From assembly GCF_003334765.1 (NCBI RefSeq), contig NZ_QOWT01000058.1: 10,459 bases of DNA; one strand, given 5' to 3'. The DNA is from Escherichia coli. GTDB taxonomy: Bacteria; Pseudomonadota; Gammaproteobacteria; Enterobacterales; Enterobacteriaceae. Both the position numbers and the translations under genes were made by a program. Below are positions 1 to 10,459 of this stretch, piece by piece; the stretch's first letter is position 1, and every line of letters starts with the position of its first letter. A model generated the notes under the pieces. That model was not told the DNA's origin, searched no databases, and saw nothing but the letters and a program-made list of their open reading frames with translations.

Positions 1-1016
1 ACCGAGAAAGACACTGAAGTTCAAAACACCGAAAGAGATAATTGAAAGGGGTGTTGCATTGACAGATTGAATCTACAACAGCGTATTTTGCACAGGAGTC
101 GCTGAAAAATACGCGTTAATCGAACAATGGCGACAACAATTTCCCATTGAAGCGATGTGTCAGGTATTTGGTGTATCCAGGAGCGGTTATTACAACTGGG
201 TACAGCATGAACCCTCAGACAGAAAACAAAGTGATGAGCGGCTAAAACTGGAGATTAAGGTGGCACATATCCGCACTCGCGAAACATATGGAACCCGGCG
301 GCTCCAGACGGAGCTGGCAGAGAATGGCATCATCGTTGGTCGTGACCGACTGGCACGTCTTCGTAAGGAGCTAAGGCTACGCTGTAAGCAGAAACGCAAG
401 TTCAGAGCGACTACGAACTCGAACCACAATCTGCCAGTTGCGCCAAATCTGCTGAACCAGACGTTCGCTCCTACAGCACCAAATCAGGTCTGGGTGGCGG
501 ACCTGACGTATGTTGCCACACAGGAGGGATGGTTGTACCTCGCTGGCATCAAAGATGTTTATACGTGCGAAATTGTCGGCTACGCCATGGGAGAGCGCAT
601 GACAAAAGAGCTGACAGGTAAAGCCCTGTTTATGGCGCTCAGGAGCCAGCGCCCACCTGCCGGGCTAATCCACCACTCTGATCGAGGTTCACAGTACTGC
701 GCATACGATTACCGGGTCATACAGGAGCAGTTTGGTCTGAAAACATCAATGTCGCGTAAAGGTAACTGTTACGACAACGCTCCGATGGAAAGCTTCTGGG
801 GAACGCTGAAAAATGAGAGCCTGAGCCACTATCGTTTTAATAACCGGGATGAAGCCATCTCAGTAATACGGGAATACATTGAGATTTTCTACAATCGTCA
901 GCGTCGTCACTCTCGTCTGGGGAATATCTCCCCGGCAGCCTTCAGGGAAAAATATCATCAGATGGCTGCTTAAAAAAAGAACAAATGGTAGTGTCCGCTA
1001 TTGCCAGTACACCTCA
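1..1016 (+). mobile_element. IS3-family insertion sequence (possibly IS600-like), 3' ~1 kb; left end lies outside the window
   Basis: OrfB frame is open from 71 and contains the 272-aa ORF 155..973. An OrfA-like C-terminal tail (QIESTTAYFAQESLKNTR, 63..119) sits in the frame that is -1-shifted relative to OrfB, the usual IS3-family arrangement. The proposed right end CCAGTACACCTCA (1004..1016) ends in CA; its reverse complement TGAGGTGTACTGGCAATAGCGGACAC resembles IS3-type terminal repeats as I recall them. The right boundary is an estimate. Confidence 0.7.
155..973 (+). CDS. IS3-family transposase OrfB (DDE integrase-core domain)
   Basis: 272-aa ORF with typical IS3 OrfB features: N-terminal VSRSGYY motif, WLYLA...D, HSDRGSQY and CYDNAPMESFWGTLK motifs. 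In IS3 elements this frame is normally expressed as an OrfAB fusion by -1 frameshifting; the frame is open upstream to 71. The specific IS name is from memory only. Confidence 0.9.
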   Translation: MCQVFGVSRSGYYNWVQHEPSDRKQSDERLKLEIKVAHIRTRETYGTRRLQTELAENGIIVGRDRLARLRKELRLRCKQKRKFRATTNSNHNLPVAPNLLNQTFAPTAPNQVWVADLTYVATQEGWLYLAGIKDVYTCEIVGYAMGERMTKELTGKALFMALRSQRPPAGLIHHSDRGSQYCAYDYRVIQEQFGLKTSMSRKGNCYDNAPMESFWGTLKNESLSHYRFNNRDEAISVIREYIEIFYNRQRRHSRLGNISPAAFREKYHQMAA

Positions 1017-1447
1017 CGCTTCCAGTCTTCGCGGTCGTTGTCGATAACTTCTTTTTTTGCCCAGCGATGGATGCTGCCGTCAATGTTTCCGGCATCCACA
1101 TCACTAGGCCAGAGAGCGTAGGCCAGTTCGTCATCCAGTGTTTTCCATGTCTGCTTGTATTCGCGATGAATGGCAGCAATGACCGGGCTGATTTTTCCTG
1201 TTGAATTTTCAGTGTACTGTTGATTGGCTCTGGCGCGGGCGAGATCAACAACAGACGTGTATTTTCCGGTTTCCTTGCGTTCACCTTCGCGACGTTTTTT
1301 CCAGATGCGCATCTCTGCCTGAATTTCGGGCCATTTAGCACCAGGAATACATTTATGCTTAACCCACCCAATGGCGTGCAACTTAAGCTCCGGATACGGG
1401 TTATTCCCCTCTGAACAGGCGCGTAAGGACTGGCAAAACGCCCGCAA
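998..1447 (-). CDS. hypothetical protein (phage-like), 3' end runs into the IS3-family element
   Basis: 149-codon ORF with protein-like composition, but the first codon is TTG and the first ATG is 46 codons in. The last 5 codons plus stop (998..1016) lie inside the proposed IS terminal sequence, so the native C-terminus may have been replaced by the insertion. A second minus-strand frame (970..1464) has low-complexity translation and is considered spurious. Confidence 0.3.
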   Translation of the reverse strand: MRAFCQSLRACSEGNNPYPELKLHAIGWVKHKCIPGAKWPEIQAEMRIWKKRREGERKETGKYTSVVDLARARANQQYTENSTGKISPVIAAIHREYKQTWKTLDDELAYALWPSDVDAGNIDGSIHRWAKKEVIDNDREDWKREVYWQ

Positions 1448-1466
1448 AAAACTCTCGAGGGCAAAG

Positions 1467-1637
1467 GTGAAGAAACCTGCTGTGGTTGATCCGGACCTTA
1501 TCTGGTCATCACCTGACGGAGAAATACGTCGCTACGACAGTCGCCTAAACATAATCTGTCGCGAGTGCCGGAAGAGCGAAGTTATGCAGCGCATACTGGC
1601 TTTCTATCAGGGTAATTTTCAGGACGTGGCGCAGTGA
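1467..1637 (+). CDS. small hypothetical ORF, translationally coupled (GTGA overlap) to the downstream methyltransferase-like gene
   Basis: The track ORF starts at 1371, but that would overlap the divergent minus-strand ORF. GTG at 1467 is preceded by GAGGG (1457..1461). Its stop TGA (1635..1637) overlaps the GTG start at 1634 of the next ORF. No recognised domain. Confidence 0.25.
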   Translation: MKKPAVVDPDLIWSSPDGEIRRYDSRLNIICRECRKSEVMQRILAFYQGNFQDVAQ

Positions 1638-2080
1638 GTGCACCGGCAACCATTCTTGATATGTGCTGTGGCAGCCGCATGTTCTGGTTCGATAAGTCTG
1701 ACGAACGGGCGATATTCAGCGATATCAGAAAAGAAGGATACACATTACGCAATGGGAGACGCTTGATTATCAGCCCTGACATTATCGCAGATTTTCGTGC
1801 ATTATCATTTGCAGACGCATCTTTTTCGATGGTTGTATTAGACCCTCCGCATCTTGAGAGTGTTGGTGATAACGCCTGGATGGGAAAGAAATATGGACGG
1901 CTGAATAAAGATGCCTGGCGTGATGATTCGCGACAGAGATTTAAAGAAGCCTTTCGGGTGTTGAGGCCGCACGGCGTTCTGATTTTTTAATGGAATGAAA
2001 CGCAAATACCGGTAAGCCAGATTCTGGCACTGACAGACAGAAAACCTGTTATCTGTCAACGAACAGGGAAAAAACGATAA
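1634..2080 (+). pseudogene. SAM-dependent (DNA) methyltransferase-like gene interrupted by an in-frame TAA at 1988..1990
   Basis: Translation contains a motif-I-like DMCCGSR and a motif-IV-like VVLDPPH (DPPY/NPPY class), then LRPHGVLIF before the TAA. The same frame stays open for 29 more codons (WNETQIPVSQILALTDRKPVICQRTGKKR) to TAA 2078..2080. Assignment to the N6-adenine/N4-cytosine methyltransferase class is by motif only. Confidence 0.45.
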
Positions 2081-2252
2081 AACCCACTGGATTATTTTTA
2101 TGAAAGAGGCATCCAGTGAGTAGATTCGTAAGGCTACAGATACGTATATCTGAATAATTAAATTCAGTTCTGTAAATAAAATTTAATCCTTAACCGGATG
2201 GATTTCTGCACCCTCAGAACATCAGGAGGCCGCCCGAAAGGGCGGTAGTGAA

Positions 2253-2363
2253 ATGCGAAAGTTCAAAATTATTATTGAAACGGGAATAGCTGGTGGAGAT
2301 TTTGAGGATGTATTCGAAGTGGACGATGACGCAACACCTGAGGAAATTCATGACGGAGCATAA
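2253..2363 (+). CDS. small acidic hypothetical ORF (36 aa)
   Basis: ATG 2253 to TAA 2361..2363, translation MRKFKIIIETGIAGGDFEDVFEVDDDATPEEIHDGA. AGGAGG lies at 2224..2229, separated from the ATG by a GAAA-capped hairpin (2229..2246). Below the ORF-track length cutoff and unverified. Confidence 0.2.
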   Translation: MRKFKIIIETGIAGGDFEDVFEVDDDATPEEIHDGA

Positions 2364-2412
2364 GAAATTTTCTTTAACTACTGCAATTACTCATACCACG
2401 AAATAAAAGACG

Positions 2413-2604
2413 ATGAGGAAGAACAAAGTGGCTGATTTTTGTTCAGCTAAATATAACATCAGTTTTGAAGAGCGGGATGAACTATTAATGGACTATGGTG
2501 AGTTACGCGGTGGAAGTGCTGCTGATGTCGAATCCTAGCGTGATGACTATGAAGCGGGAAAAACTCCGGTCGAAGCATATTGTGATGAGTGGGGCGATGA
2601 ATGA
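2413..2604 (+). pseudogene. short ORF interrupted by in-frame TAG (2536..2538); probable decayed prophage gene
   Basis: ATG 2413, 41 codons, TAG, then 21 more open codons to TGA 2602..2604. The alternative frame is also open, which fits decayed coding DNA. Confidence 0.2.
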
Positions 2605-2888
2605 GCGAGATTAATTATCAGGAAGGGCATGAAACGGCGGGGCAAGCAAAACCAGTGGCATGGCGATATCGCTACGTGAAAAAAGGCGTTACGGACTTTC
2701 AGGGGAAGTAGTGGTCTGGTGACTGGAAATATGTACCGAAAAAAGAGGATTGTAACGACAGGCCGAACTATCAAATTCAGGCCTTATTCACTGCCTCACC
2801 AGTCCCAGTTACATCAGAAGAACTGGTTAAAGCTGTGCACTTTTATGAACAACTAAAACGCGAAAATCCACCAACATCCGGCAACTAG
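2601..2888 (+). pseudogene. short ORF interrupted by in-frame TAG (2709..2711); probable decayed prophage gene
   Basis: ATG 2601 overlaps the upstream stop (ATGA). 36 codons, TAG, then 58 further open codons (WSGDWKYVPKKEDCNDRPNYQIQALFTASPVPVTSEELVKAVHFYEQLKRENPPTSGN) to TAG 2886..2888. Confidence 0.25.
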
Positions 2889-3142
2889 ATTAATGGATTA
2901 ACTATGTCGGTTAAACGACCAGCCAACTGAAAAAGCGGAAACCTGATTACAGGTTGCCAGATAAGGCAATGAGCTACCTGGCGCGGAACGGACTGATAAG
3001 TATGGGGAATGTTTTACGATGAACCTTTAGACTAAAGAGTTTGTAACGCTATGTAAGTGATTTTTTCTGGTTTAGATATTTATATGTCCGGCCAAATTGA
3101 GGTGTGTTTAAATGTAATTGCACATTGATTGTAGGAGGAATA

Positions 3143-3322
3143 ATGAAAAACGCATTGCAGTTTTTGTTTGTTGCGTTCTGGTTGTTCGCATCATGTATGC
3201 CCATCATCTTCACAGCAAGGTATATGGAAAAAGTTGATGTTTTGATATTAATATTTGGATATATAAATGCCCTTTTTTTAGGGGTGTTCATGGCGGTCAT
3301 GTGCATTGAATACTGGCGGTAA
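3143..3322 (+). CDS. small predicted membrane protein (59 aa, two hydrophobic helices) in an AT-rich islet
   Basis: Strong Shine-Dalgarno AGGAGG (3133..3138) 4 nt before ATG 3143. Translation MKNALQFLFVAFWLFASCMPIIFTARYMEKVDVLILIFGYINALFLGVFMAVMCIEYWR has two hydrophobic segments. Local GC content is low. The track lists a longer 3104 start with no ribosome-binding site. Confidence 0.4.
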   Translation: MKNALQFLFVAFWLFASCMPIIFTARYMEKVDVLILIFGYINALFLGVFMAVMCIEYWR

Positions 3323-3508
3323 ATACAGCGAACTCCATTGGTTTAGTTGGATATTTACTGTGCTGGACAAAAACGGTTTGCGGGGAAATCTTAGTTAAGT
3401 AGAATGACTGCGGGTGCTTGAGGCTATCTGCCTCGGGCATGGACACCAACGGCAGATAGAGAAAAGCCCCAGTTAACATTACGCGTCCTGCAAGACGCTT
3501 AACATTAA

Positions 3509-3590
3509 TCTGAGGCCAATTTCATGCTAGACACATGTAGGTTAGCCTCTTACGTGCCGAAAGGCACGGAGAAGCAGGCTATTGTTAACA
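3509..3590 (+). other. degenerate relE-3'end/hok-leader-like segment (paralogous remnant of the hokD translation-initiation region), no intact toxin ORF
   Basis: 3568..3582 GGAGAAGCAGGCTAT is identical to the hokD ribosome-binding site and start region at 6857..6871. The upstream hairpin CGTGCC-GAAA-GGCACG (3553..3568) parallels CACC-GAA-GGTG (6824..6834) with compensatory changes. 3509..3537 weakly resembles 6794..6818. The start position reads ATT and only 6 codons follow before TAA. Confidence 0.4.
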
Positions 3591-3627
3591 CCAAGCTGTA
3601 ATGTCCCCTTTGAACCATTCTAAAATG

Positions 3628-3654
3628 TCCCCAGACAATTCTCTGGGGGATTTT
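3628..3654 (+). other. stem-loop CCCCAGA-caattc-TCTGGGG plus T-run directly upstream of the transposase start
   Basis: 7-bp perfect stem followed by GATTTTTC, ending 2 nt before ATG 3657. It is terminator-like; it may insulate the transposase gene from read-in transcription or be part of the IS end. Confidence 0.4.
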
Positions 3655-3656
3655 TC

Positions 3657-4970
3657 ATGATCAAAGAGACTGTTACGATGAGTCATAAGGAACTCCACCG
3701 ACTTCAGATTATTCAGGAACAAGCTGCGGCACGCATTGGCATTTCTATTCGGCAGGTTAAACGTCTGGTGCAACGGTATAGAAATGAAGGGCCTTCTGGT
3801 CTGGTTTCCCACCGACGTGGAAAGCGTCCTAATAATTCCTTTTCTACTGAATTCAGAGCAACAGTAATTTCACTCCTCAAAGGCCGTTACGCTGATTTTG
3901 GACCTACGTTTGCGTGCGAAAAATTGCGCGAGATACACGGTTTATCTTTATCCGTTGAAACTCTCAGAAAGTGGATGATAGAAGAGGGGTTATGGCGTGA
4001 ACGCCGTCGTAAAATTGCCCGTATATATCAACGCCGCATGCGACGACCATCTTACGGTGAACTGATCCAGATTGATGGCTCACCTCATGACTGGTTTGAA
4101 AATCGAGGCCCCAGATGTACACTGATCGTTTTCATTGATGATGCCACCAGTGCGTTGATGGCGTTGCGTTTTGTGCCTGCTGAAACAACCCGGGCTTACA
4201 TGGAAACCCTCCGGGGTTACCTTAATGATCATGGCGTACCGCTCGCTCTCTACTCTGATAGACACAGTATATTCAGGGTAAATAACCCAGAGCGGGAAGG
4301 TGAGCTGACCCAGTTCACTCGTGCGATAAAGACACTGGGCATCGAGCCAATCCATGCCAACAGCCCGCAGGCAAAAGGGCGGGTAGAGCGCGCCAATCAG
4401 ACACTACAGGACAGGCTGGTCAAAGAAATGCGGCTTCAGAATATCAGTGATATTGAAACAGCAAATGCATGGTTGCCGACCTTTATTGAAGCCTATAACA
4501 ACCGGTTCGCTACGTCGCCTCGTACTACTGATAATGCTCATCTTGATGTGCACCATTCTGAAGAGGAACTGGGTTATATCTTCAGCCTACAGGCGAAGCG
4601 CGTTCTGTCTAAAAATCTCACTTTCCAGTACAAAAGCAGTGCGTTTCAGGTACGCAGTGAGGGCCGGGGATATCGACTTAGGCATTCGGTTGTTACTGTA
4701 TGCGAGAACTTTGACGGTGAAATTAACGTTCTGTATGACGGGAAAGCGCTGGGCTGGGAAAAGTATGTTGATGGCCCGGAGCCTATACCACTGGATGATG
4801 AAAAGAGTGTCCATGAACGAGTGGATAATGCCCGTATTGATTTACGCTCAAAATACTATGTTAAACCTAAAGCTGACCATCCCTGGCTTACGCGCCGAAC
4901 GCAAAGTCATCAGCAAGTTAAGCCCCCGAAGTTACCTAAAAAGAAGCCTGATCCCGATAAAAAAGATTGA
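3657..4970 (+). CDS. DDE transposase with N-terminal helix-turn-helix and integrase-core domain (ISNCY/IS1202-group or IS481-like)
   Basis: 437-aa ORF. The N-terminus (RIGISIRQVKRLVQRYRNEG) looks like a helix-turn-helix. Candidate catalytic residues are D in IQIDGSPHDW, D in ALYSDRHSIF and E in KGRVERANQTL. The basic lysine/proline-rich C-terminus is typical of transposases. GGGGGA precedes the ATG by 7 nt. Family assignment is from memory. Confidence 0.85.
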   Translation: MIKETVTMSHKELHRLQIIQEQAAARIGISIRQVKRLVQRYRNEGPSGLVSHRRGKRPNNSFSTEFRATVISLLKGRYADFGPTFACEKLREIHGLSLSVETLRKWMIEEGLWRERRRKIARIYQRRMRRPSYGELIQIDGSPHDWFENRGPRCTLIVFIDDATSALMALRFVPAETTRAYMETLRGYLNDHGVPLALYSDRHSIFRVNNPEREGELTQFTRAIKTLGIEPIHANSPQAKGRVERANQTLQDRLVKEMRLQNISDIETANAWLPTFIEAYNNRFATSPRTTDNAHLDVHHSEEELGYIFSLQAKRVLSKNLTFQYKSSAFQVRSEGRGYRLRHSVVTVCENFDGEINVLYDGKALGWEKYVDGPEPIPLDDEKSVHERVDNARIDLRSKYYVKPKADHPWLTRRTQSHQQVKPPKLPKKKPDPDKKD

Positions 4971-5366
4971 AACCAAGATCGATTCGGTTGAGTGCATATC
5001 CATTCATAGGGTAGATTCTTAAGTCGCGTTTCTGGTGTTCATTTTCGGGTGGTTTGTTACTTGTTTTACCGGGGATATGCCAGAAACGCGCTGAGTCAGT
5101 CTGGGCGGTGCGCGTAATGAGGCGTTATGGTAAATAGCCTATGCTAATGTCCGCTAAGAGCAAGAAGCGGAAGTTGGCAGTTTTGTGGACTGTCCCCACA
5201 AAAGTGACTACAGAAATAGTTGCAATTCATAATTGATCATGGGTTGTCAGTTAAACTCGTGGCGATTTAAATAGACTAATTGGGAGTGCGTCCATTACTT
5301 ATATCTTGTAATGTTAACTATCAGAAATGATACAAAGATAATATGTCTTTAAAGAAAAGGCTGATG

Positions 5367-5392
5367 GCGAAAAGTGGCCCGATGAGGGCCAC
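5367..5392 (-). terminator. rho-independent terminator of flxA
   Basis: Hairpin GTGGCCC-gatga-GGGCCAC (5374..5392). On the minus strand it is followed by TTTTCGCC, 14 nt downstream of the flxA stop. Confidence 0.5.
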
Positions 5393-5406
5393 AATACGGC
5401 TGTCAC

Positions 5407-5739
5407 TTAGACGTAAATATCAATGGTGCCAGCGGTATTTGTATCGTCTTTTTTCTCTTCTTTTTTATCAGGCTGAACTGTCGCGTCTTCATTCTTTTTC
5501 TCTGCCTGCTGCCTTAACAACTGCTCCAGTTGAGCCCAGAGGCTTTCAATTTGCTTCTGTACCAATGCAGCCATTTCTTTTTTCTGCTGTGTCGTCATCC
5601 CCTCTTCCGATGAGATTTTCCCAAGCTTTTCAGTCAGCACCTGAATTTGTCTTGTGATTTTGGCTATTTCTGATGTTCCTTCCGGGGCGGAGTTGTTTGA
5701 AATAACGGTTGAGGTATTTCCCTGAATTGTGACAGACAT
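5407..5739 (-). CDS. flxA: FlxA (FliA-regulated prophage protein)
   Basis: 110-aa ORF (MSVTIQGNTSTVISNNSAPEG...QQKKEMAALVQKQIESLWAQLEQLL...) recognised from memory as E. coli FlxA. GGAG lies 7 nt upstream of the ATG on the minus strand, and a sigma-28 promoter lies just upstream. Confidence 0.85.
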   Translation of the reverse strand: MSVTIQGNTSTVISNNSAPEGTSEIAKITRQIQVLTEKLGKISSEEGMTTQQKKEMAALVQKQIESLWAQLEQLLRQQAEKKNEDATVQPDKKEEKKDDTNTAGTIDIYV

Positions 5740-5762
5740 AGATTTCTCCTTTTAAAAAAGCA

Positions 5763-5789
5763 CTATCGGCATGCACAAAAAAATCTTTA
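5763..5789 (-). promoter_or_regulatory. sigma-28 (FliA) promoter for flxA
   Basis: Minus strand reads TAAAGATT-N11-GCCGATAG against the class-3 flagellar consensus TAAAGTTT-N11-GCCGATAA (14/16). The -10 element ends about 24 nt upstream of the flxA ATG. Confidence 0.6.
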
Positions 5790-5941
5790 ATCGTATTTCT
5801 TGTGTCATTAATTGTTTGATGTTCAGATTGTTTTCCTCGCGGGCTGGCGCGCCTCAGAAAGTAAAGCTTGTTGACAGGGGTAAACGTTCGGCAATAATTT
5901 TCTGCCGCATGCGGGTGTTGCATAAAACGTGTTACGTTCCT

Positions 5942-6247
5942 TTATCGACAGGTCAGGTCACCGCTCACCCGCCGACGAGAAAGCAACACTGACATGCTAA
6001 AGCAAAAAATAGATGAATAAGTTGAGTTGTGCATATGTAGCCTGACCGTCACAAAGTATATGGTGTCTGTACCAGTAAGATGATGGCCGGACTCTTTAAA
6101 AACGAGCTGACCTGCACAATACAGGATGGACTTAGCAATGGCTGCTCCTGGCACAAAGCGGACAGTGATCACCGTTCTTACGACTACTTTCTGACTTCCT
6201 TCGTGACTTGCCCTAAGCATGTTGTAGTGCGATACTTGTAATGACAT
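5942..6247 (-). CDS. ydfV: YdfV-like hypothetical ORF (doubtful coding status)
   Basis: 101-codon ORF at the position where K-12 annotates ydfV, as I recall. Its ATG (6245..6247) lies inside the relBE operator repeats and the translation is S/T/C-rich and poorly protein-like, so it is kept at low confidence. Confidence 0.4.
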   Translation of the reverse strand: MSLQVSHYNMLRASHEGSQKVVVRTVITVRFVPGAAIAKSILYCAGQLVFKESGHHLTGTDTIYFVTVRLHMHNSTYSSIFCFSMSVLLSRRRVSGDLTCR

Positions 6248-6259
6248 TTGTAATTACAA
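6208..6259 (+). promoter_or_regulatory. relBE promoter and operator (relO)
   Basis: -35 TTGCCC (6208..6213), 17-nt spacer, -10 GATACT (6231..6236). TTGTAAT repeats at 6236..6242 and 6248..6254, and the palindrome TTGTAATTACAA (6248..6259), lie between the promoter and the relB ATG at 6272. This is the classic RelB-RelE autoregulation site. Confidence 0.65.
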
Positions 6260-6271
6260 GAGGTGTAAGAC

Positions 6272-6511
6272 ATGGGTAGCATTAACCTGCGTATTGACGA
6301 TGAACTTAAAGCGCGTTCTTACGCCGCGCTTGAAAAAATGGGTGTAACTCCTTCTGAAGCGCTTCGTCTCATGCTCGAGTATATCGCTGACAATGAACGC
6401 TTGCCGTTCAAACAGACACTCCTGAGTGATGAAGATGCTGAACTTGTGGAGATAGTGAAAGAACGGCTTCGTAATCCTAAGCCAGTACGTGTGACGCTGG
6501 ATGAACTCTGA
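6272..6511 (+). CDS. relB: RelB antitoxin
   Basis: 79-aa ORF MGSINLRIDDELKARSYAALEKMGVTPSEALRLMLEYIADNERLPFKQTLLSDEDAELVEIVKERLRNPKPVRVTLDEL, near-identical to E. coli RelB from memory. Its stop overlaps the relE start (TGATG). Confidence 0.93.
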   Translation: MGSINLRIDDELKARSYAALEKMGVTPSEALRLMLEYIADNERLPFKQTLLSDEDAELVEIVKERLRNPKPVRVTLDEL

Positions 6512-6798
6512 TGGCGTATTTTCTGGATTTTGACGAGCGGGCACTAAAGGAATGGCGAAAGCTGGGCTCGACGGTACGTGAACAGTTGAAAAAGAAGCTG
6601 GTTGAAGTACTTGAGTCACCCCGGATTGAAGCAAACAAGCTCCGTGGTATGCCTGATTGTTACAAGATTAAGCTCCGGTCTTCAGGCTATCGCCTTGTAT
6701 ACCAGGTTATAGACGAGAAAGTTGTCGTTTTCGTGATTTCTGTTGGGAAAAGAGAACGCTCGGAAGTATATAGCGAGGCGGTCAAACGCATTCTCTGA
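6511..6798 (+). CDS. relE: RelE mRNA interferase toxin
   Basis: 95-aa ORF MAYFLDFDERALKEWRKLGSTVREQLKKKLVEVLESPRIEANKLRGMPDCYKIKLRSSGYRLVYQVIDEKVVVFVISVGKRERSEVYSEAVKRIL, recognised as RelE. It is translationally coupled to relB. Confidence 0.93.
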   Translation: MAYFLDFDERALKEWRKLGSTVREQLKKKLVEVLESPRIEANKLRGMPDCYKIKLRSSGYRLVYQVIDEKVVVFVISVGKRERSEVYSEAVKRIL

Positions 6799-6869
6799 AC
6801 CAAAGCATGACATCTCTGTTTCGCACCGAAGGTGACACTTCTGCTTTGCGTTGACAGGAGAAGCAGGCT

Positions 6870-7025
6870 ATGAAGCAGCAAAAGGCGATGTTAATCGCCC
6901 TGATCGTCATCTGTTTAACCGTCATAGTGACGGCACTGGTAACGAGGAAAGACCTCTGCGAGGTACGAATCCGAACCGGCCAGACGGAGGTCGCTGTCTT
7001 CACAGCTTACGAACCTGAGGAGTAA
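6870..7025 (+). CDS. hokD: HokD (RelF) Hok-family type I membrane toxin
   Basis: 51-aa ORF MKQQKAMLIALIVICLTVIVTALVTRKDLCEVRIRTGQTEVAVFTAYEPEE, not in the ORF track because it is short. It has a ribosome-binding site GGAG at 6857..6860. The Hok family signature is a transmembrane helix followed by LCE. Confidence 0.9.
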   Translation: MKQQKAMLIALIVICLTVIVTALVTRKDLCEVRIRTGQTEVAVFTAYEPEE

Positions 7026-7083
7026 GAGACCCGGCGGGGGAGAAATCCCTCGCCACCTCTGATGTGGCAGGCATCCTCAACGC

Positions 7084-7115
7084 ACCCGCACTTAACCCGC
7101 TTCGGCGGGTTTTTG
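7084..7115 (+). terminator. rho-independent terminator after the relB-relE-hokD operon
   Basis: Hairpin CCCGC-ttcg-GCGGG (7086..7099) followed by TTTTTGTTTTTATTTT (7100..7115). Confidence 0.6.
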
Positions 7116-7241
7116 TTTTTATTTTCAACGCGTTTGAAGTTCTGGACGGTGCCGGAATAGAATCAAAAATACTTAAGTAGCGCGCAGGGATAAGAGGGAT
7201 GGTCCCTTAAAGGGGAGAGCTAATTATCCGGAAGGATTCTG

Positions 7242-7493
7242 ATGATGAACATCGAAGAACTGCGTAAAATTTTTTGTGAAGATGGCCTCTATGCTGTGTG
7301 CGTTGAAAATGGAAATCTTGTTAGTCATTACCGCATTATGTGTTTGCGAAAGAATGGGGCTGCGTTAATTAATTTTGTGGATGCTCGGGTCACGGACGGA
7401 TTTATCTTGCGCGAAGGTGAGTTTGTCACTTCATTACAGGCATTGAAAGAGATCGGAATAAAAGCTGGCTTTTCTGCTTTTTCAGGAGAATAA
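7242..7493 (+). CDS. rem: Rem-like prophage protein
   Basis: 83-aa ORF MMNIEELRKIFCEDGLYAVCVENGNLVSHYRIMCLRKNGAALINFVDARVTDGFILREGEF..., matching Qin prophage Rem by memory and by its position between hokD and ydfU. Confidence 0.8.
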   Translation: MMNIEELRKIFCEDGLYAVCVENGNLVSHYRIMCLRKNGAALINFVDARVTDGFILREGEFVTSLQALKEIGIKAGFSAFSGE

Positions 7494-7559
7494 ACTCATC
7501 TACAATCTTGCGCGGGGCTGAACTCCCGCTGAGTAACACCGTGCCACCGGAGAAAACCG

Positions 7560-7838
7560 ATGGCACGCAACGCAAAATATTACAATTCTGATAATTCGCC
7601 CGTTCTTGCCTGCACGCACGGGCGGTATTCTCACGCATTCAAGTCTGAATGGTTCCAGCACCCTCCATGCACTGCAGAACAGGCCGAATGGCTGATTCAT
7701 TCTTACCGCAGGCGCGGGTTCGAGGTTAAGAAAGCTCTCAGTCTCGACTATCGGCACTGGATAATCTCTGTCAGGCTGCCTTATTCCGAACGCCCACCAC
7801 GTGCGTCCCGCACTTTCCAGCAACGGATCTGGAGGTAA
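7560..7838 (+). CDS. hypothetical prophage protein (92 aa), tightly coupled to ydfU
   Basis: GGAG sits 7 nt upstream of the ATG. Its stop at 7836..7838 is followed 1 nt later by the ydfU GTG start, whose ribosome-binding site GGAGG (7831..7835) lies inside this ORF. No recognised domain. Confidence 0.45.
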   Translation: MARNAKYYNSDNSPVLACTHGRYSHAFKSEWFQHPPCTAEQAEWLIHSYRRRGFEVKKALSLDYRHWIISVRLPYSERPPRASRTFQQRIWR

Positions 7839-7839
7839 C

Positions 7840-8889
7840 GTGCGGGTATTACTTAGACCTGTTCTGGTGCCTGAGCTTGGGCTGGTGGTCCTTAAGCCGG
7901 GCCGTGAATCCATACAGATATTTCATAATCCTCGAGTGCTGGTGGAACCGGAACCAAAAAGCATGCGTAATCTGCCATCCGGAGTCGTTCCTGCCGTTCG
8001 CCAGCCGCTGGCGGAAGACAAAACATTGCTGCCGTTTTTTAGTAACGAACGGGTGATTCGTGCTGCTGGCGGCGTTGGCGCATTGTCCGACTGGCTATTA
8101 CGTCATGTTACATCCTGCCAGTGGCCTAATGGCGATTACCATCACACTGAAACAGTCATTCACCGTTATGGTACCGGCGCAATGGTGTTGTGCTGGCACT
8201 GCGACAACCAACTGCGTGACCAGACATCGGAATCACTGGAGCTGCTTGCTCAACAAAATCTGACAGCATGGGTGATTGACGTCATCCGTCACGCAATAAG
8301 CGGTACGCAGGAGCGGGAATTATCTTTGGCTGAATTATCCTGGTGGGCGGTCTGCAATCAGGTGGTGGATGCACTACCTGAGGCTGTATCGCGTCGTTCG
8401 CTGGGATTACCAGCGGAAAAAATCTGCTCGGTGTACCGCGAAAGCGACATCGTACCGGGAGAGCAGACCGCCACCAGCATATTGAAACAACGCACAAAAA
8501 ATCTTGCACCGTTGCCTTACGCCCACCAGCAACAAAAATCACCACAGGAAAAGACGGTGGTAAGCATCACCGTTGATCCAGAGTCTCCGGAATCTTTCAT
8601 GAAGCTGCCTAAACGTCGCCGCTGGGTTAAGGAGAAATACACACGTTGGGTTAAGACACAGCCGTGTGCTTGCTGCGGTATGCCAGCCGACGATCCGCAT
8701 CATCTGATTGGTCACGGGCAGGGCGGAATGGGAACAAAAGCACATGATCTCTTTGTGTTGCCTTTGTGCAGAAAGCATCACAACGAGCTGCATACGGATA
8801 CAGTGGCATTTGAAGATAAGTATGGCTCCCAACTGGAGCTGATATTTCGTTTTATCGATCGCGCGCTGGCAATTGGCGTACTGGCGTAA
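7840..8889 (+). CDS. ydfU: YdfU-like DUF968 protein (HNH-like C-terminal motif)
   Basis: The track ORF 7801..8889 is trimmed to GTG 7840, which is preceded by GGAGG, giving 349 aa. The C-terminus CACCGMPADDPHHLIGHGQGGMGTKAHDLFVLPLCRKHHNELH has a Cys/His pattern like HNH/zinc-binding nucleases. Identity is from memory. Confidence 0.8.
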   Translation: MRVLLRPVLVPELGLVVLKPGRESIQIFHNPRVLVEPEPKSMRNLPSGVVPAVRQPLAEDKTLLPFFSNERVIRAAGGVGALSDWLLRHVTSCQWPNGDYHHTETVIHRYGTGAMVLCWHCDNQLRDQTSESLELLAQQNLTAWVIDVIRHAISGTQERELSLAELSWWAVCNQVVDALPEAVSRRSLGLPAEKICSVYRESDIVPGEQTATSILKQRTKNLAPLPYAHQQQKSPQEKTVVSITVDPESPESFMKLPKRRRWVKEKYTRWVKTQPCACCGMPADDPHHLIGHGQGGMGTKAHDLFVLPLCRKHHNELHTDTVAFEDKYGSQLELIFRFIDRALAIGVLA

Positions 8890-8902
8890 GTGGAGAACGA
8901 GC

Positions 8903-9655
8903 ATGAACCTTGAAGCCTTACCAAAATATTACTCCCCAAAATCTCCAAAATTGAGCGATGACGCTCCAGCGACAGGCACCGGTTGTTTAACAATTACGGA
9001 TGTAATGGCAGCGCAGGGGATGGTGCAGTCGAAAGCACCACTTGGGTTGGCCTTATTTCTGGCAAAAGTTGGTGTTCAGGACCCTCAGTTTGCGATTGAA
9101 GGCCTGCTAAATTACGCGATGGCACTGGATAACCCGACATTGAACAAATTGAGTGAAGAAATCCGGTTACAGATTATTCCTTACCTCGTGAGTTTTGCCT
9201 TTGCTGATTACTCCAGGTCTGCGGCAAGTAAGGCTCGCTGTGAGCATTGTTCAGGTACGGGATTTTATAATGTATTGCGCGAAGTGGTGAAACACTACAG
9301 ACGCGGGGAATCTGTAATCAAGGAAGAATGGGTGAAGGAACTATGTCAGCATTGCCATGGTAAGGGCGAAGCCAGCACAGCGTGCAGAGGGTGTAAGGGT
9401 AAAGGGATTGTTCTGGATGAAAAAAGAACCCGGTTTCATGGCGTACCGGTATATAAGATTTGTGGGCGTTGTAATGGAAACCGGTTTAGTCGTTTACCGA
9501 CCACGCTGGCACGACGTCATGTCCAGAAGCTGGTACCAGACCTGACCGATTATCAGTGGTATAAGGGGTATGCGGACGTCATTGGTAAACTGGTAACAAA
9601 GTGCTGGCAGGAAGAAGCATACGCGGAAGCGCAATTGAGGAAGGTGACGAGATAA
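8903..9655 (+). CDS. quuQ: Q-family late-gene antiterminator (QuuQ-like)
   Basis: 250 aa from ATG 8903, which has GGAG 6 nt upstream; the track ORF starts 10 codons earlier. Contains several CxxC pairs (CEHCSGTG, CQHCHGKG, CRGCKGKG, CGRCNGN) and is followed by a promoter-terminator pair arranged like lambdoid P_R'-tR'. Confidence 0.85.
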   Translation: MNLEALPKYYSPKSPKLSDDAPATGTGCLTITDVMAAQGMVQSKAPLGLALFLAKVGVQDPQFAIEGLLNYAMALDNPTLNKLSEEIRLQIIPYLVSFAFADYSRSAASKARCEHCSGTGFYNVLREVVKHYRRGESVIKEEWVKELCQHCHGKGEASTACRGCKGKGIVLDEKRTRFHGVPVYKICGRCNGNRFSRLPTTLARRHVQKLVPDLTDYQWYKGYADVIGKLVTKCWQEEAYAEAQLRKVTR

Positions 9656-9686
9656 ATGATTTTTGCTGAAGATGGCGACATGATGT

Positions 9687-9715
9687 TTGCATTTTTCAAA
9701 AAATATGGATAAAAT
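9687..9715 (+). promoter_or_regulatory. putative late promoter (P_R'-like sigma-70 promoter) downstream of quuQ
   Basis: -35 TTGCAT (9687..9692), 17-nt spacer, -10 TAAAAT (9710..9715), beginning 32 nt after the quuQ stop. Confidence 0.5.
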
Positions 9716-9760
9716 TTTTTCAACGATGGGCTTTGTATACCCGACGTTAAGAAAAAGTAG

Positions 9761-9790
9761 AAAACCCGCTGATGAGCGGGTTTTGTGCTT
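9761..9790 (+). terminator. rho-independent terminator (tR'-like, possibly bidirectional)
   Basis: Hairpin CCCGCT-gatg-AGCGGG (9765..9780) followed by TTTTGTGCTTT. An A-run precedes it, so it could also act on the minus strand. It lies about 50-60 nt downstream of the predicted start of the putative late promoter. Confidence 0.55.
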
Positions 9791-10076
9791 TAAATGGGGC
9801 AATGGTAATGTTGAATCTCATCCCGGGACTCATGTCTGTTAACTTATTATTTAGCTGGTGACTTGGTTATTTGCCTGATGTTTAAAATGTTTTCTTCCAG
9901 TACAATGTCCCTAAACACAATGAGTCTGCTTATTATATTATTAGCAGAGCTATTACGGCCAAAGTACAGCATAAGCTTTTAAAGCCAATCAACCAGTCAT
10001 CAAGACAGACGGGGTTATTCATAAAAACTCTCCATGTGTGATCCGATGGGGCCTGAAATTAAAGCTTTAATATAGC

Positions 10077-10289
10077 TCATGAAAGGTAAACATTGGCAGC
10101 TGAAGGGCCACGCAGACCATTTATCCGGCAAAATTCCACGCGTAATCCGGTGGTAATTTCTTCTGCATCGCGGAGATTGAGCGCTGAAACATGAAGCTGG
10201 ACATCGATACGACCATCGGATGGGGTGATAAGACCCTTGCCGCTTTTGCCGTCAAAGGTTTTGACAATTCCTGTCATTTTACGGGACAA
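10077..10289 (-). CDS. cspF: cold-shock-domain protein, CspF/CspH family
   Basis: 70-aa [73 protein letters not shown] with CspA-family motifs. It is convergent with quuQ. The first codon is TTG, with AAGGA 6 nt upstream. Confidence 0.8.
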
Positions 10290-10459
10290 AAAAATTCCTT
10301 AATACTGATAACTTGGCGCACTATACACACGTTCCTGAAGAAAGCTATAGTTTTTTGATGGGGTTGAAGATGGCTGGATGTCTAAGGAAGGTGCGAATAA
10401 GCGGGGAAATACTTCTCGGCTGACTCAGTCATTTCATTTCTTCATGTTTGAGCCGATTT

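What the first reader, a model, noticed from the sequence alone, without database searches (positions are those of the whole stretch)
2250..2890. Run of short overlapping ORFs, two broken by a single in-frame TAG each
Between 2253 and 2888 there are at least three short ORFs in a row on the plus strand. Two (2413..2604 and 2601..2888) are each broken by exactly one amber codon (2536..2538 and 2709..2711) with the frame otherwise open, and starts overlap upstream stops (ATGA). With the TAA-broken methyltransferase just upstream, this looks like decayed prophage genes. Recurrent single in-frame stops could in principle reflect suppressor-dependent genes, which I consider unlikely but testable.
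Basis: seen in the sequence. Interest (0 to 1): 0.4.

Follow-up and report, generated by a model that had tools for sequence, protein, structure and literature searches.

The report
Decayed genes in Qin cryptic prophage
The run of short, stop-broken reading frames is a row of dead phage genes inside the well-known Qin cryptic prophage of E. coli, already marked as pseudogenes in public annotation, so it is ordinary.

Summary
The window is the E. coli cryptic prophage Qin, non-K-12 form, 100% identical over 1-10385 to many complete genomes. The picture was incomplete, though.

- **Lesions.** Four neighbouring genes are broken:
  - methyltransferase: AAA>TAA at 1988, plus a +1 G frameshift;
  - DUF7167 gene 2253-2435: AAA>TAA at 2361;
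  - phrog_519 gene 2428-2604: TGG>TAG at 2536;
  - phrog_660 gene 2601-3022: CAG>TAG at 2709, a 90-nt deletion, CAG>TAG at 2886 and a 4-nt deletion.
- **Intact relatives.** Intact alleles carry sense codons at every stop position and evolve under purifying selection (dN/dS 0.07-0.15).
- **History.** The lesions are nested among alleles, so they arose at different times.
- **Chance.** Random substitutions in these frames create a stop 5-6% of the time, so three to five stops are not clearly more than chance.
- **Suppression.** It is not supported. The stops are a mix of TAA and TAG, frameshifts are also present, and the window has no tRNA. supE, the one suppressor allele checked, turned up only in K-12 laboratory or derived strains among the rows I could read.

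One unexplained detail remains: the first stop in each of the three small genes falls at codon 37 (post-hoc P about 1e-4). I take this as coincidence.

The parts
1634..2123 (+). SAM-dependent DNA methyltransferase pseudogene. TAA at 1988-1990 where an intact homologue has AAA, and one extra G in the run 2066-2068 (frameshift).
   Evidence: Alignment to an intact 157-aa homologue of an O111 strain. phrog_954 covers only profile positions 52-165 of 229. Annotated 'frameshifted; internal stop' in IAI1 and KMi029.
2253..2435 (+). DUF7167-family gene (60 codons), pseudogene. Codon 37 is TAA (2361-2363); intact alleles have AAA (Lys).
   Evidence: Pfam PF23768 at 1.3e-13. phrog_1997 at 1.6e-29. Allele alignment. 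Annotated 'internal stop'.
2428..2604 (+). 58-codon phage gene (phrog_519), pseudogene. Codon 37 is TAG (2536-2538); all intact relatives have TGG (Trp). The start is GTG here and ATG in relatives. The in-frame ATG at 2413 is specific to the window lineage.
   Evidence: Trp is invariant at this position across the intact homologues read. The inferred ancestral context TCC TGG forms a CCTGG Dcm site, read from the sequence.
2601..3022 (+). Gene of the phrog_660 family (119-171 codons when intact), pseudogene with four lesions: TAG 2709-2711 (CAG in intact alleles), a 90-nt in-frame deletion after 2860, TAG 2886-2888 (CAG in L010 and L012), and a 4-nt deletion after 2919.
   Evidence: Annotated 'frameshifted; internal stop'.
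2361..2363 (+). Nonsense codon TAA (from AAA).
2536..2538 (+). Nonsense codon TAG (from TGG; a G>A change at an inferred CCTGG Dcm site).
2709..2711 (+). Nonsense codon TAG (from CAG). It is shared with prophage alleles whose two upstream genes are intact.
   Evidence: The exact 81-mer around it occurs in 877 records, including CFT073 and O104:H4.
2886..2888 (+). Second nonsense codon TAG in the third gene (CAG in L010 and L012).

Best explanation
**What it is.** These are ordinary pseudogenes. A row of small accessory genes of a lambdoid phage sits between the replication genes and the hok / Q-antiterminator region, and it is decaying inside the immobilised (cryptic) prophage Qin of E. coli.

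**How it came about (inferred).**
- Once the prophage could no longer grow as a phage, selection on these genes lapsed.
- Independent point mutations then turned sense codons into stops: AAA>TAA twice, TGG>TAG once and CAG>TAG twice.
- Small indels and a repeat-mediated 90-nt deletion accumulated alongside them.
- The lesions arose at different times and were reshuffled among prophages by recombination.
- The stops terminate translation normally. Nothing reads through them.

**Shown:** the identity of the locus, the ancestral codons, the extra lesions, the nested distribution of lesions among alleles, and purifying selection on intact alleles.

**Inferred:** that the loss was neutral rather than selected, and that the TGG>TAG change came from deamination of 5-methylcytosine at a Dcm site.
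For: - **Locus is Qin.** The window is 100% identical over 1-10385 to many complete E. coli chromosomes. Its gene neighbourhood is Qin's, and it is surrounded by IS fragments and truncated genes.
- **The frames are real genes.** All three repaired frames hit phage families.
- **Intact alleles exist.** They occur in prophages and phage records, with Lys, Trp and Gln at the three stop positions.
- **Selection.** Among intact alleles dN/dS is mostly 0.07-0.15. For the window allele against intact ones it is 0.14-0.20. Most of the divergence therefore predates inactivation.
- **Extra lesions in the same genes or their neighbours.** A frameshift in the methyltransferase; a 90-nt deletion, a 4-nt deletion and a second TAG in the third gene.
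- **Decay continues in sister alleles.** Examples are single-base deletions in L009, an 8-nt deletion in L010 and A-run lengths of 6, 7 or 8.
- **Nested distribution.**
  - TAG 2709 is present in alleles whose two upstream genes are intact (L003, L010, L011, L015).
  - L010 lacks TAG 2886.
  - L017 and L019 have TAA 2361 but TGG at 2536.
- **No repaired allele of this lineage.** None was found in 5426 complete genomes; the best match to a repaired query is 99.5%, that is, exactly the three stops.
- **Chance.** The expected nonsense fraction is 5-6%, which is compatible with the count observed.
Against: - The first stop of each of the three small genes lies at codon 37, and the four stops are spaced 175, 173 and 177 nt apart. 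A random-placement model gives P about 1e-4 to 5e-4. That figure is post hoc and uncorrected for the many patterns one might have noticed.
- If only about 10-16 substitutions postdate inactivation, three stops would be a mild excess (P 0.01-0.08).
- No expression data were available, so complete silence of the products is not shown.
Confidence: 0.93

Rival explanations
1. Adaptive inactivation. The genes were knocked out because their products harm the host (many small early phage proteins are toxic), so the nonsense mutations were favoured by selection rather than drifting to fixation.
For: - Each of three or four adjacent genes carries its own stop.
- dN/dS of the window allele is only slightly raised. 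That implies few neutral changes since inactivation, and hence a possible mild excess of stops.
- The triple-stop allele is present, at 99% identity or more, in about 410 complete-genome records.
Against: - The stop count is within chance for plausible numbers of neutral changes.
- The same genes also carry frameshifts and deletions, and sister alleles keep decaying.
- The whole neighbourhood is degraded by IS elements and truncations, so no gene-specific selection is needed.
- Wide distribution is explained by vertical inheritance of a fixed chromosomal prophage.
- The toxicity of the products is untested.
Confidence: 0.05
2. Suppressor-dependent or recoded genes. The in-frame stops are read through (an amber or ochre suppressor tRNA, or TAG read as an amino acid), giving full-length proteins.
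For: - Three in-frame TAGs leave otherwise open frames.
- An automated gene caller translated a 1.2-kb metagenomic copy with TAG read as Gln, which put 'Q' versions of these proteins into a public database.
Against: - The stops are of two kinds (TAA at 1988 and 2361; TAG at 2536, 2709 and 2886) and are accompanied by frameshifts and deletions that no suppressor can mend.
- Relatives carry three different sense codons (Lys, Trp, Gln) rather than a conserved stop.
- The window has no tRNA gene.
- An exact supE44 allele occurs in only 155 records. The 40 listed are nearly all named K-12 laboratory strains or derivatives, and K-12's Qin lacks this segment.
- The 'Q' proteins come from DNA that has TAG.
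- The host is E. coli, which uses the standard code (established knowledge).
Confidence: 0.01
3. Truncated but functional mini-proteins. The 36-residue N-terminal fragments, all ending at codon 37, are themselves the selected products.
For: All three first stops lie at codon 37 (post-hoc P about 1e-4).
Against: - The three proteins are unrelated in sequence and belong to different families.
- The stops arose at different times in different backgrounds.
- In the alignment, sequence downstream and upstream of the stops varies between sister alleles without visible constraint.
- No mechanism is known that would favour a common length.
Confidence: 0.01

Closest known systems
Pseudogenes of E. coli cryptic ('grounded') prophages such as Qin, Rac and DLP12
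   Same: - Same element (Qin) and same kind of decay: nonsense codons, frameshifts, deletions and IS insertions in genes that are intact in related phages.
- The literature describes Qin as highly variable and degraded (PMC6379469).
   Different: - K-12's own Qin has lost this segment altogether: nothing lies between ydfX and ydfW. These particular pseudogenes are therefore seen only in non-K-12 forms.
- Nothing is mechanistically different.
Amber mutation hotspots at Dcm (CCWGG) sites, as in the classic lacI studies (recalled from memory, not looked up here)
   Same: The 2536 stop is TGG>TAG within an inferred ancestral TCC TGG (CCTGG). This is the change expected from deamination of 5-methylcytosine on the opposite strand.
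   Different: - Only one of the five stops sits in such a site.
- The ancestral TGG is inferred from family-wide conservation of Trp, not observed in a window-type allele.
Phages with TAG reassigned to an amino acid (genetic code 15 type)
   Same: Superficially similar: several in-frame TAGs, and a gene caller treated a short contig of this locus that way.
   Different: - TAA stops and frameshifts are also present.
- Relatives have ordinary sense codons.
- The host is E. coli.
- No suppressor tRNA is present in the window.

Membership tests
Pfam DUF7167 (PF23768), first gene 2253-2435 | Significant match to the family profile over its full length | tested here: met
   The repaired translation matches at 1.3e-13, model positions 1-60 of 60. 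phrog_1997 matches at 1.6e-29.
PHROG 519, second gene 2428-2604 | Significant match to the family profile | tested here: met
   1.6e-13 over residues 1-58. There is no Pfam family. 166 phage records hold tblastn homologues.
PHROG 660, third gene 2601-3022 | Significant match to the family profile | tested here: met
   5.7e-29 for the window read-through and 2.9e-45 for an intact 119-aa allele. There is no significant Pfam match.
Pseudogene in cryptic prophage Qin | Lies in the Qin prophage at its chromosomal site | tested here: met
   rspB and an integrase/excisionase lie on one side; ydfW, flxA, ydfV, relBE, hokD, rem, ydfU, ydfT and cspF lie on the other. The order matches the K-12 Qin feature.
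Pseudogene in cryptic prophage Qin | Intact homologues exist with sense codons at the stop positions and evolve under purifying selection | tested here: met
   The ancestral codons are AAA, TGG, CAG and CAG. dN/dS among intact alleles is mostly 0.07-0.15.
Pseudogene in cryptic prophage Qin | Other disabling lesions in the same or adjacent genes, varying between sister alleles | tested here: met
   +1 G in the methyltransferase. 90-nt and 4-nt deletions in the third gene. Further indels in L009, L010, L003 and L015.
Pseudogene in cryptic prophage Qin | No full-length protein is made | not testable with these tools
   Needs proteomics or ribosome profiling.
Suppressor-dependent or stop-codon-recoded genes | A single stop codon type used in frame | tested here: not met
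   TAA at 1988 and 2361; TAG at 2536, 2709 and 2886.
Suppressor-dependent or stop-codon-recoded genes | A cognate suppressor tRNA in the element or host | tested here: inconclusive
   The window has no tRNA. An exact supE44 allele occurs in only 155 of 5424 records, and the 40 listed are nearly all named K-12 laboratory strains or derivatives. Other suppressor alleles and whole carrier genomes were not scanned.
Suppressor-dependent or stop-codon-recoded genes | In-frame stops conserved at the same positions in diverged, otherwise intact relatives | tested here: not met
   Diverged relatives carry sense codons. TAG 2709 is shared only among near-identical copies that also carry deletions and frameshifts.

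The most novel reading that the evidence does not exclude
The positions of the stops may not be random. The first stop of each of the three small genes is at codon 37, and the four stops are spaced 173-177 nt apart. That could reflect a constraint on where a translationally coupled phage operon tolerates premature termination, for example one that leaves too short a ribosome-free gap for Rho-dependent polarity on useful downstream genes. It could also reflect selection for knock-outs of toxic genes.
Probability: 0.03. Interest if true: 0.4.

Novelty: already known. Interest (0 to 1): 0.08.

Why it matters
It matters little for biology. It is one more documented example of how a grounded prophage decays.

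It has some practical value for annotation:
- The 118-aa methyltransferase product is called intact in some RefSeq records although it is truncated.
- The 2428-2604 pseudogene is not annotated at all.
- Gene callers that allow TAG recoding have put spurious 'Gln' read-through versions of these pseudogenes into public protein collections.

Tried and rejected
- **Programmed frameshift or transcriptional slippage at the A-run 2679-2684.** Rejected. The intact allele has the same A6 and the same frame as the window. The A7 and A8 variants shift into a frame with no homology.
- **Real CAG (Gln) alleles at 2536.** The database proteins P0003, P0004, P0026 and P0032 suggested this. For P0004 it is rejected: its DNA (L020) has TAG, and the gene caller read TAG as Gln. 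I assume the same for the other three and did not check their DNA.
- **A 29-nt hypermutated or converted patch around 2528-2556.** Rejected. The whole first two thirds of the window-type second gene is similarly diverged from the common allele. L017-L019 are better read as recombinants.
- **A common mutational mechanism for all the stops (deaminase, DGR-type adenine mutagenesis).** Rejected. The changes are A>T twice, G>A once and C>T twice, in unrelated contexts, and they arose at different times.
- **Sequencing error.** Rejected. The identical sequence occurs in hundreds of independent complete genomes.
- **NCBIfam search.** It gave no hits for any of the products.
- **Closest intact window-type allele in the large protein database.** Only recombinant alleles turned up.

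Full report
**Where the window comes from**

The window matches many complete E. coli chromosomes at 100% over positions 1-10385. The annotated neighbourhood in strain FORC 064 and in strain 300709 is the cryptic prophage Qin. An integrase and excisionase lie next to rspB on one side. On the other side lie ydfW, flxA, ydfV, relBE, hokD, rem, ydfU, ydfT and cspF. This is the same order as the 'cryptic prophage Qin' feature of K-12 MG1655.

K-12 itself has lost the segment under study: nothing lies between ydfX and ydfW. Around the finding the prophage is visibly wrecked. There are a partial IS600 with IS30 just upstream, a truncated exonuclease gene, a truncated DUF977 gene and a transposase downstream.

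**Checking the observation**

The ATGA overlap at 2601-2604 is real. The upstream methyltransferase has TAA at 1988-1990. The description needs four corrections.

1. The ORF 2253..2363 is the front of a 60-codon DUF7167 gene (2253-2435). TAA at 2361-2363 cuts it, where intact alleles have AAA.
2. The family start of the second gene is at 2428, overlapping the DUF7167 stop by 8 nt. Relatives have ATG there and the window has GTG. The ATG at 2413 arises from a window-lineage substitution.
3. The third gene has four lesions, not one. A 171-codon intact allele (L012) and the alleles L010 and L013 show this.
   - Its apparent stop, TAG 2886-2888, is a mutated CAG.
   - 90 nt are missing after 2860, between two AATCC(A/G)CCA repeats.
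   - 4 nt are missing after 2919.
   - The remnant runs on to the TGA at 3020-3022.
4. The methyltransferase also has an extra G in the run 2066-2068, which shifts the frame.

RefSeq already annotates 2253-2435 as 'DUF7167 family protein, internal stop' and 2601-3022 as 'hypothetical protein, frameshifted; internal stop'.

**Are they real genes?**

Yes. The repaired translations match phage protein families:

| Gene | Match |
|---|---|
| 2253-2435 | phrog_1997, 1.6e-29; Pfam DUF7167, 1.3e-13 |
| 2428-2604 | phrog_519, 1.6e-13 |
| 2601-3022 | phrog_660, 5.7e-29 |
| methyltransferase (truncated product) | phrog_954, 6.7e-58, covering only profile positions 52-165 of 229 |

Intact copies of all three small genes sit in the same order, with the same overlapping starts, in Escherichia phage vB_EcoS-689R5. 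The same is true of several E. coli prophages. At the stop positions they carry Lys (AAA), Trp (TGG) and Gln (CAG). Trp at the second position is invariant in all the intact homologues I read.

Among intact alleles dN/dS is mostly 0.07-0.15, so these are protein-coding genes under purifying selection. For the window allele against intact alleles it is 0.14-0.20. Most of its divergence (dS about 0.4) therefore accumulated while it was still functional.

**History of the lesions**

The lesions are nested among alleles, so they did not arise together.

- TAG 2709, the 90-nt deletion and the 4-nt deletion occur in prophage alleles whose DUF7167 and second genes are intact (L003, L010, L011, L015). 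Of these, L010 still has CAG at 2886.
- The exact 81-mer around TAG 2709 is present in 877 records, including CFT073 and an O104:H4 strain.
- TAA 2361 and TAG 2536 are confined to the Qin-type allele, which is found at 99% identity or more in about 410 records.
- Two metagenomic contigs (L017, L019) have TAA 2361 but an intact TGG. They are best read as recombinants with the common allele.
- A query with the three stops repaired finds nothing closer than 99.5%, that is, the three stops themselves, in 5426 complete genomes.
- Sister alleles show continuing decay: single-base deletions in L009, an 8-nt deletion in L010, and A-run lengths of 6, 7 or 8.

**Mutation types**

The five stops come from AAA>TAA twice, TGG>TAG once and CAG>TAG twice. 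The TGG>TAG change lies in an inferred ancestral TCC TGG, a CCTGG Dcm site. That is the context in which deamination of 5-methylcytosine is known to create amber codons. The Dcm hotspot itself is established knowledge that I recalled rather than looked up. The other four stops are not in such sites. No single mechanism links them.

**Is the number of stops more than chance?**

In these frames 5-6% of random single-base substitutions create a stop. The window differs from the consensus of intact alleles at about 69 positions in the three genes, three of which are stops. If all the differences were neutral, three stops would be expected. If only 10-16 postdate inactivation, as the modest rise in dN/dS suggests, P(>=3) is 0.01-0.08. 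This is at most a weak hint of excess.

**An unexplained coincidence**

The first stop in each of the three small genes is at codon 37. With TAG 2886, the four stops are spaced 175, 173 and 177 nt apart. Random placement over the codons that can mutate to a stop gives P = 1.1e-4 for the shared codon index and 4.5e-4 for the even spacing.

These probabilities are post hoc. The stops have different mutational origins and different ages, the three proteins are unrelated, and independent lesions in sister alleles are scattered. I therefore treat it as coincidence, but I record it.

**The suppressor idea**

Several results count against it.

- The stops are of two kinds, and frameshifts and deletions sit beside them.
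- Relatives carry sense codons rather than conserved stops.
- The window has no tRNA gene.
- The supE44 allele of glnV has an exact copy in only 155 of 5424 records. The 40 listed are nearly all named K-12 laboratory strains or derivatives, and K-12's Qin lacks this segment.

The protein database does contain versions of the second gene with Gln at the stop position (P0003, P0004, P0026, P0032). I checked the DNA behind P0004 (L020). It has TAG, and on that contig the neighbouring third gene was read through both of its TAGs. A gene caller evidently applied a TAG=Gln code to a short contig, so P0004 is an annotation artefact rather than an allele. I assume the same for the other three without having checked their DNA.

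**Verdict**

This is an ordinary row of pseudogenes in a cryptic prophage, already flagged in public annotation.

**Surroundings**

- A hok/sok regulatory region (Rfam sok, 104 bits, 3412-3583) is separated from the hokD coding sequence at 6870 by a 3,274-bp insertion (3583-6856).
  - The insertion carries an ISNCY-type transposase ORF, flxA, ydfV and relBE.
  - It is flanked by a 15-bp direct duplication, GGAGAAGCAGGCTAT, and has imperfect terminal inverted repeats.
  - That the relBE integration truncated hokD is already in the literature (PMC6379469).
- A 59-codon membrane-like ORF at 3143-3322, behind a strong ribosome-binding site, is intact in every copy that was picked up by its exact ribosome-binding-site motif. 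It is unannotated in the RefSeq records.

Noticed in passing
window 3412-3583, 3583-6856 and 6857-7025: The hok/sok locus is split. Its regulatory part (Rfam sok, 104 bits) sits at 3412-3583 and the hokD coding sequence at 6870-7025. A 3,274-bp insertion lies between them, carrying an ISNCY-type transposase, flxA, ydfV and relBE. The insertion is flanked by a 15-bp direct duplication, GGAGAAGCAGGCTAT (3568-3582 and 6857-6871), and has imperfect terminal inverted repeats (19 of 26 by eye). An uninterrupted hok locus in strain Ecol_545 is colinear with the two halves. It looks like a transposon that brought relBE in as cargo. Truncation of hokD by the relBE integration is already noted in PMC6379469; I did not check whether the transposon ends and the target duplication have been described.
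   Followed up: partly
window 3657-4970: This is one continuous 437-codon ORF, and phrog_8463 (transposase) matches it over the full profile (3.3e-137). RefSeq splits it into a 'partial ISNCY transposase' (3678-4700) and the 49-codon gene ydfW (4821-4970). So ydfW appears to be the tail of the transposase frame.
   Followed up: partly
window 3143-3322: An unannotated 59-codon ORF sits behind a strong ribosome-binding site (GGAGGAATAATG). Its product, MKNALQFLFVAFWLF..., is hydrophobic and looks like a small protein with two membrane helices. It is intact, with at most one amino-acid change, in all 10 copies examined, but those copies were selected by an exact match to its ribosome-binding-site motif. 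It has no PHROG match.
   Followed up: partly
window 2361, 2536, 2709, 2886: The first nonsense codon of each of the three small genes is at codon 37, and the four stops are spaced 175, 173 and 177 nt apart. The post-hoc random-placement P is 1e-4 to 5e-4. It is probably coincidence, given the different mutation types and ages.
   Followed up: partly
L020 205-399 and 396-725 (copy of window about 2410-2930): A public protein collection holds read-through versions of these pseudogenes with Gln at the TAG positions (P0003, P0004, P0026, P0032). For P0004 I confirmed that a gene caller applied a TAG=Gln code to a short metagenomic contig, because the underlying DNA has TAG. I did not check the DNA behind the other three.
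   Followed up: yes
window 2224-2255: The sequence AGGAGG is followed by a GC-rich GAAA-loop hairpin (2229-2246, GCCGCCC GAAA GGGCGGU; centroid fold -15.5 kcal/mol for the 71-nt stretch, z-score only -1.7) and then the DUF7167 start at 2253. The hairpin could bring the ribosome-binding site close to the ATG. Some alleles (L010, L011, L012) carry uncompensated changes in the stem, so conservation is imperfect.
   Followed up: partly
window 1634-1990: The truncated 118-aa methyltransferase product is annotated as an intact protein (WP_001310834.1) in some RefSeq records and as a frameshifted pseudogene with an internal stop in others.
   Followed up: yes
window 2528-2537: The window-type second gene reads GTC GAA TCC TAG where all other alleles read GCT GAA GCA TGG. 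The Ser codon TCC next to the inferred TGG creates a CCTGG Dcm site that the common allele lacks, which may explain why this lineage acquired the amber codon.
   Followed up: partly
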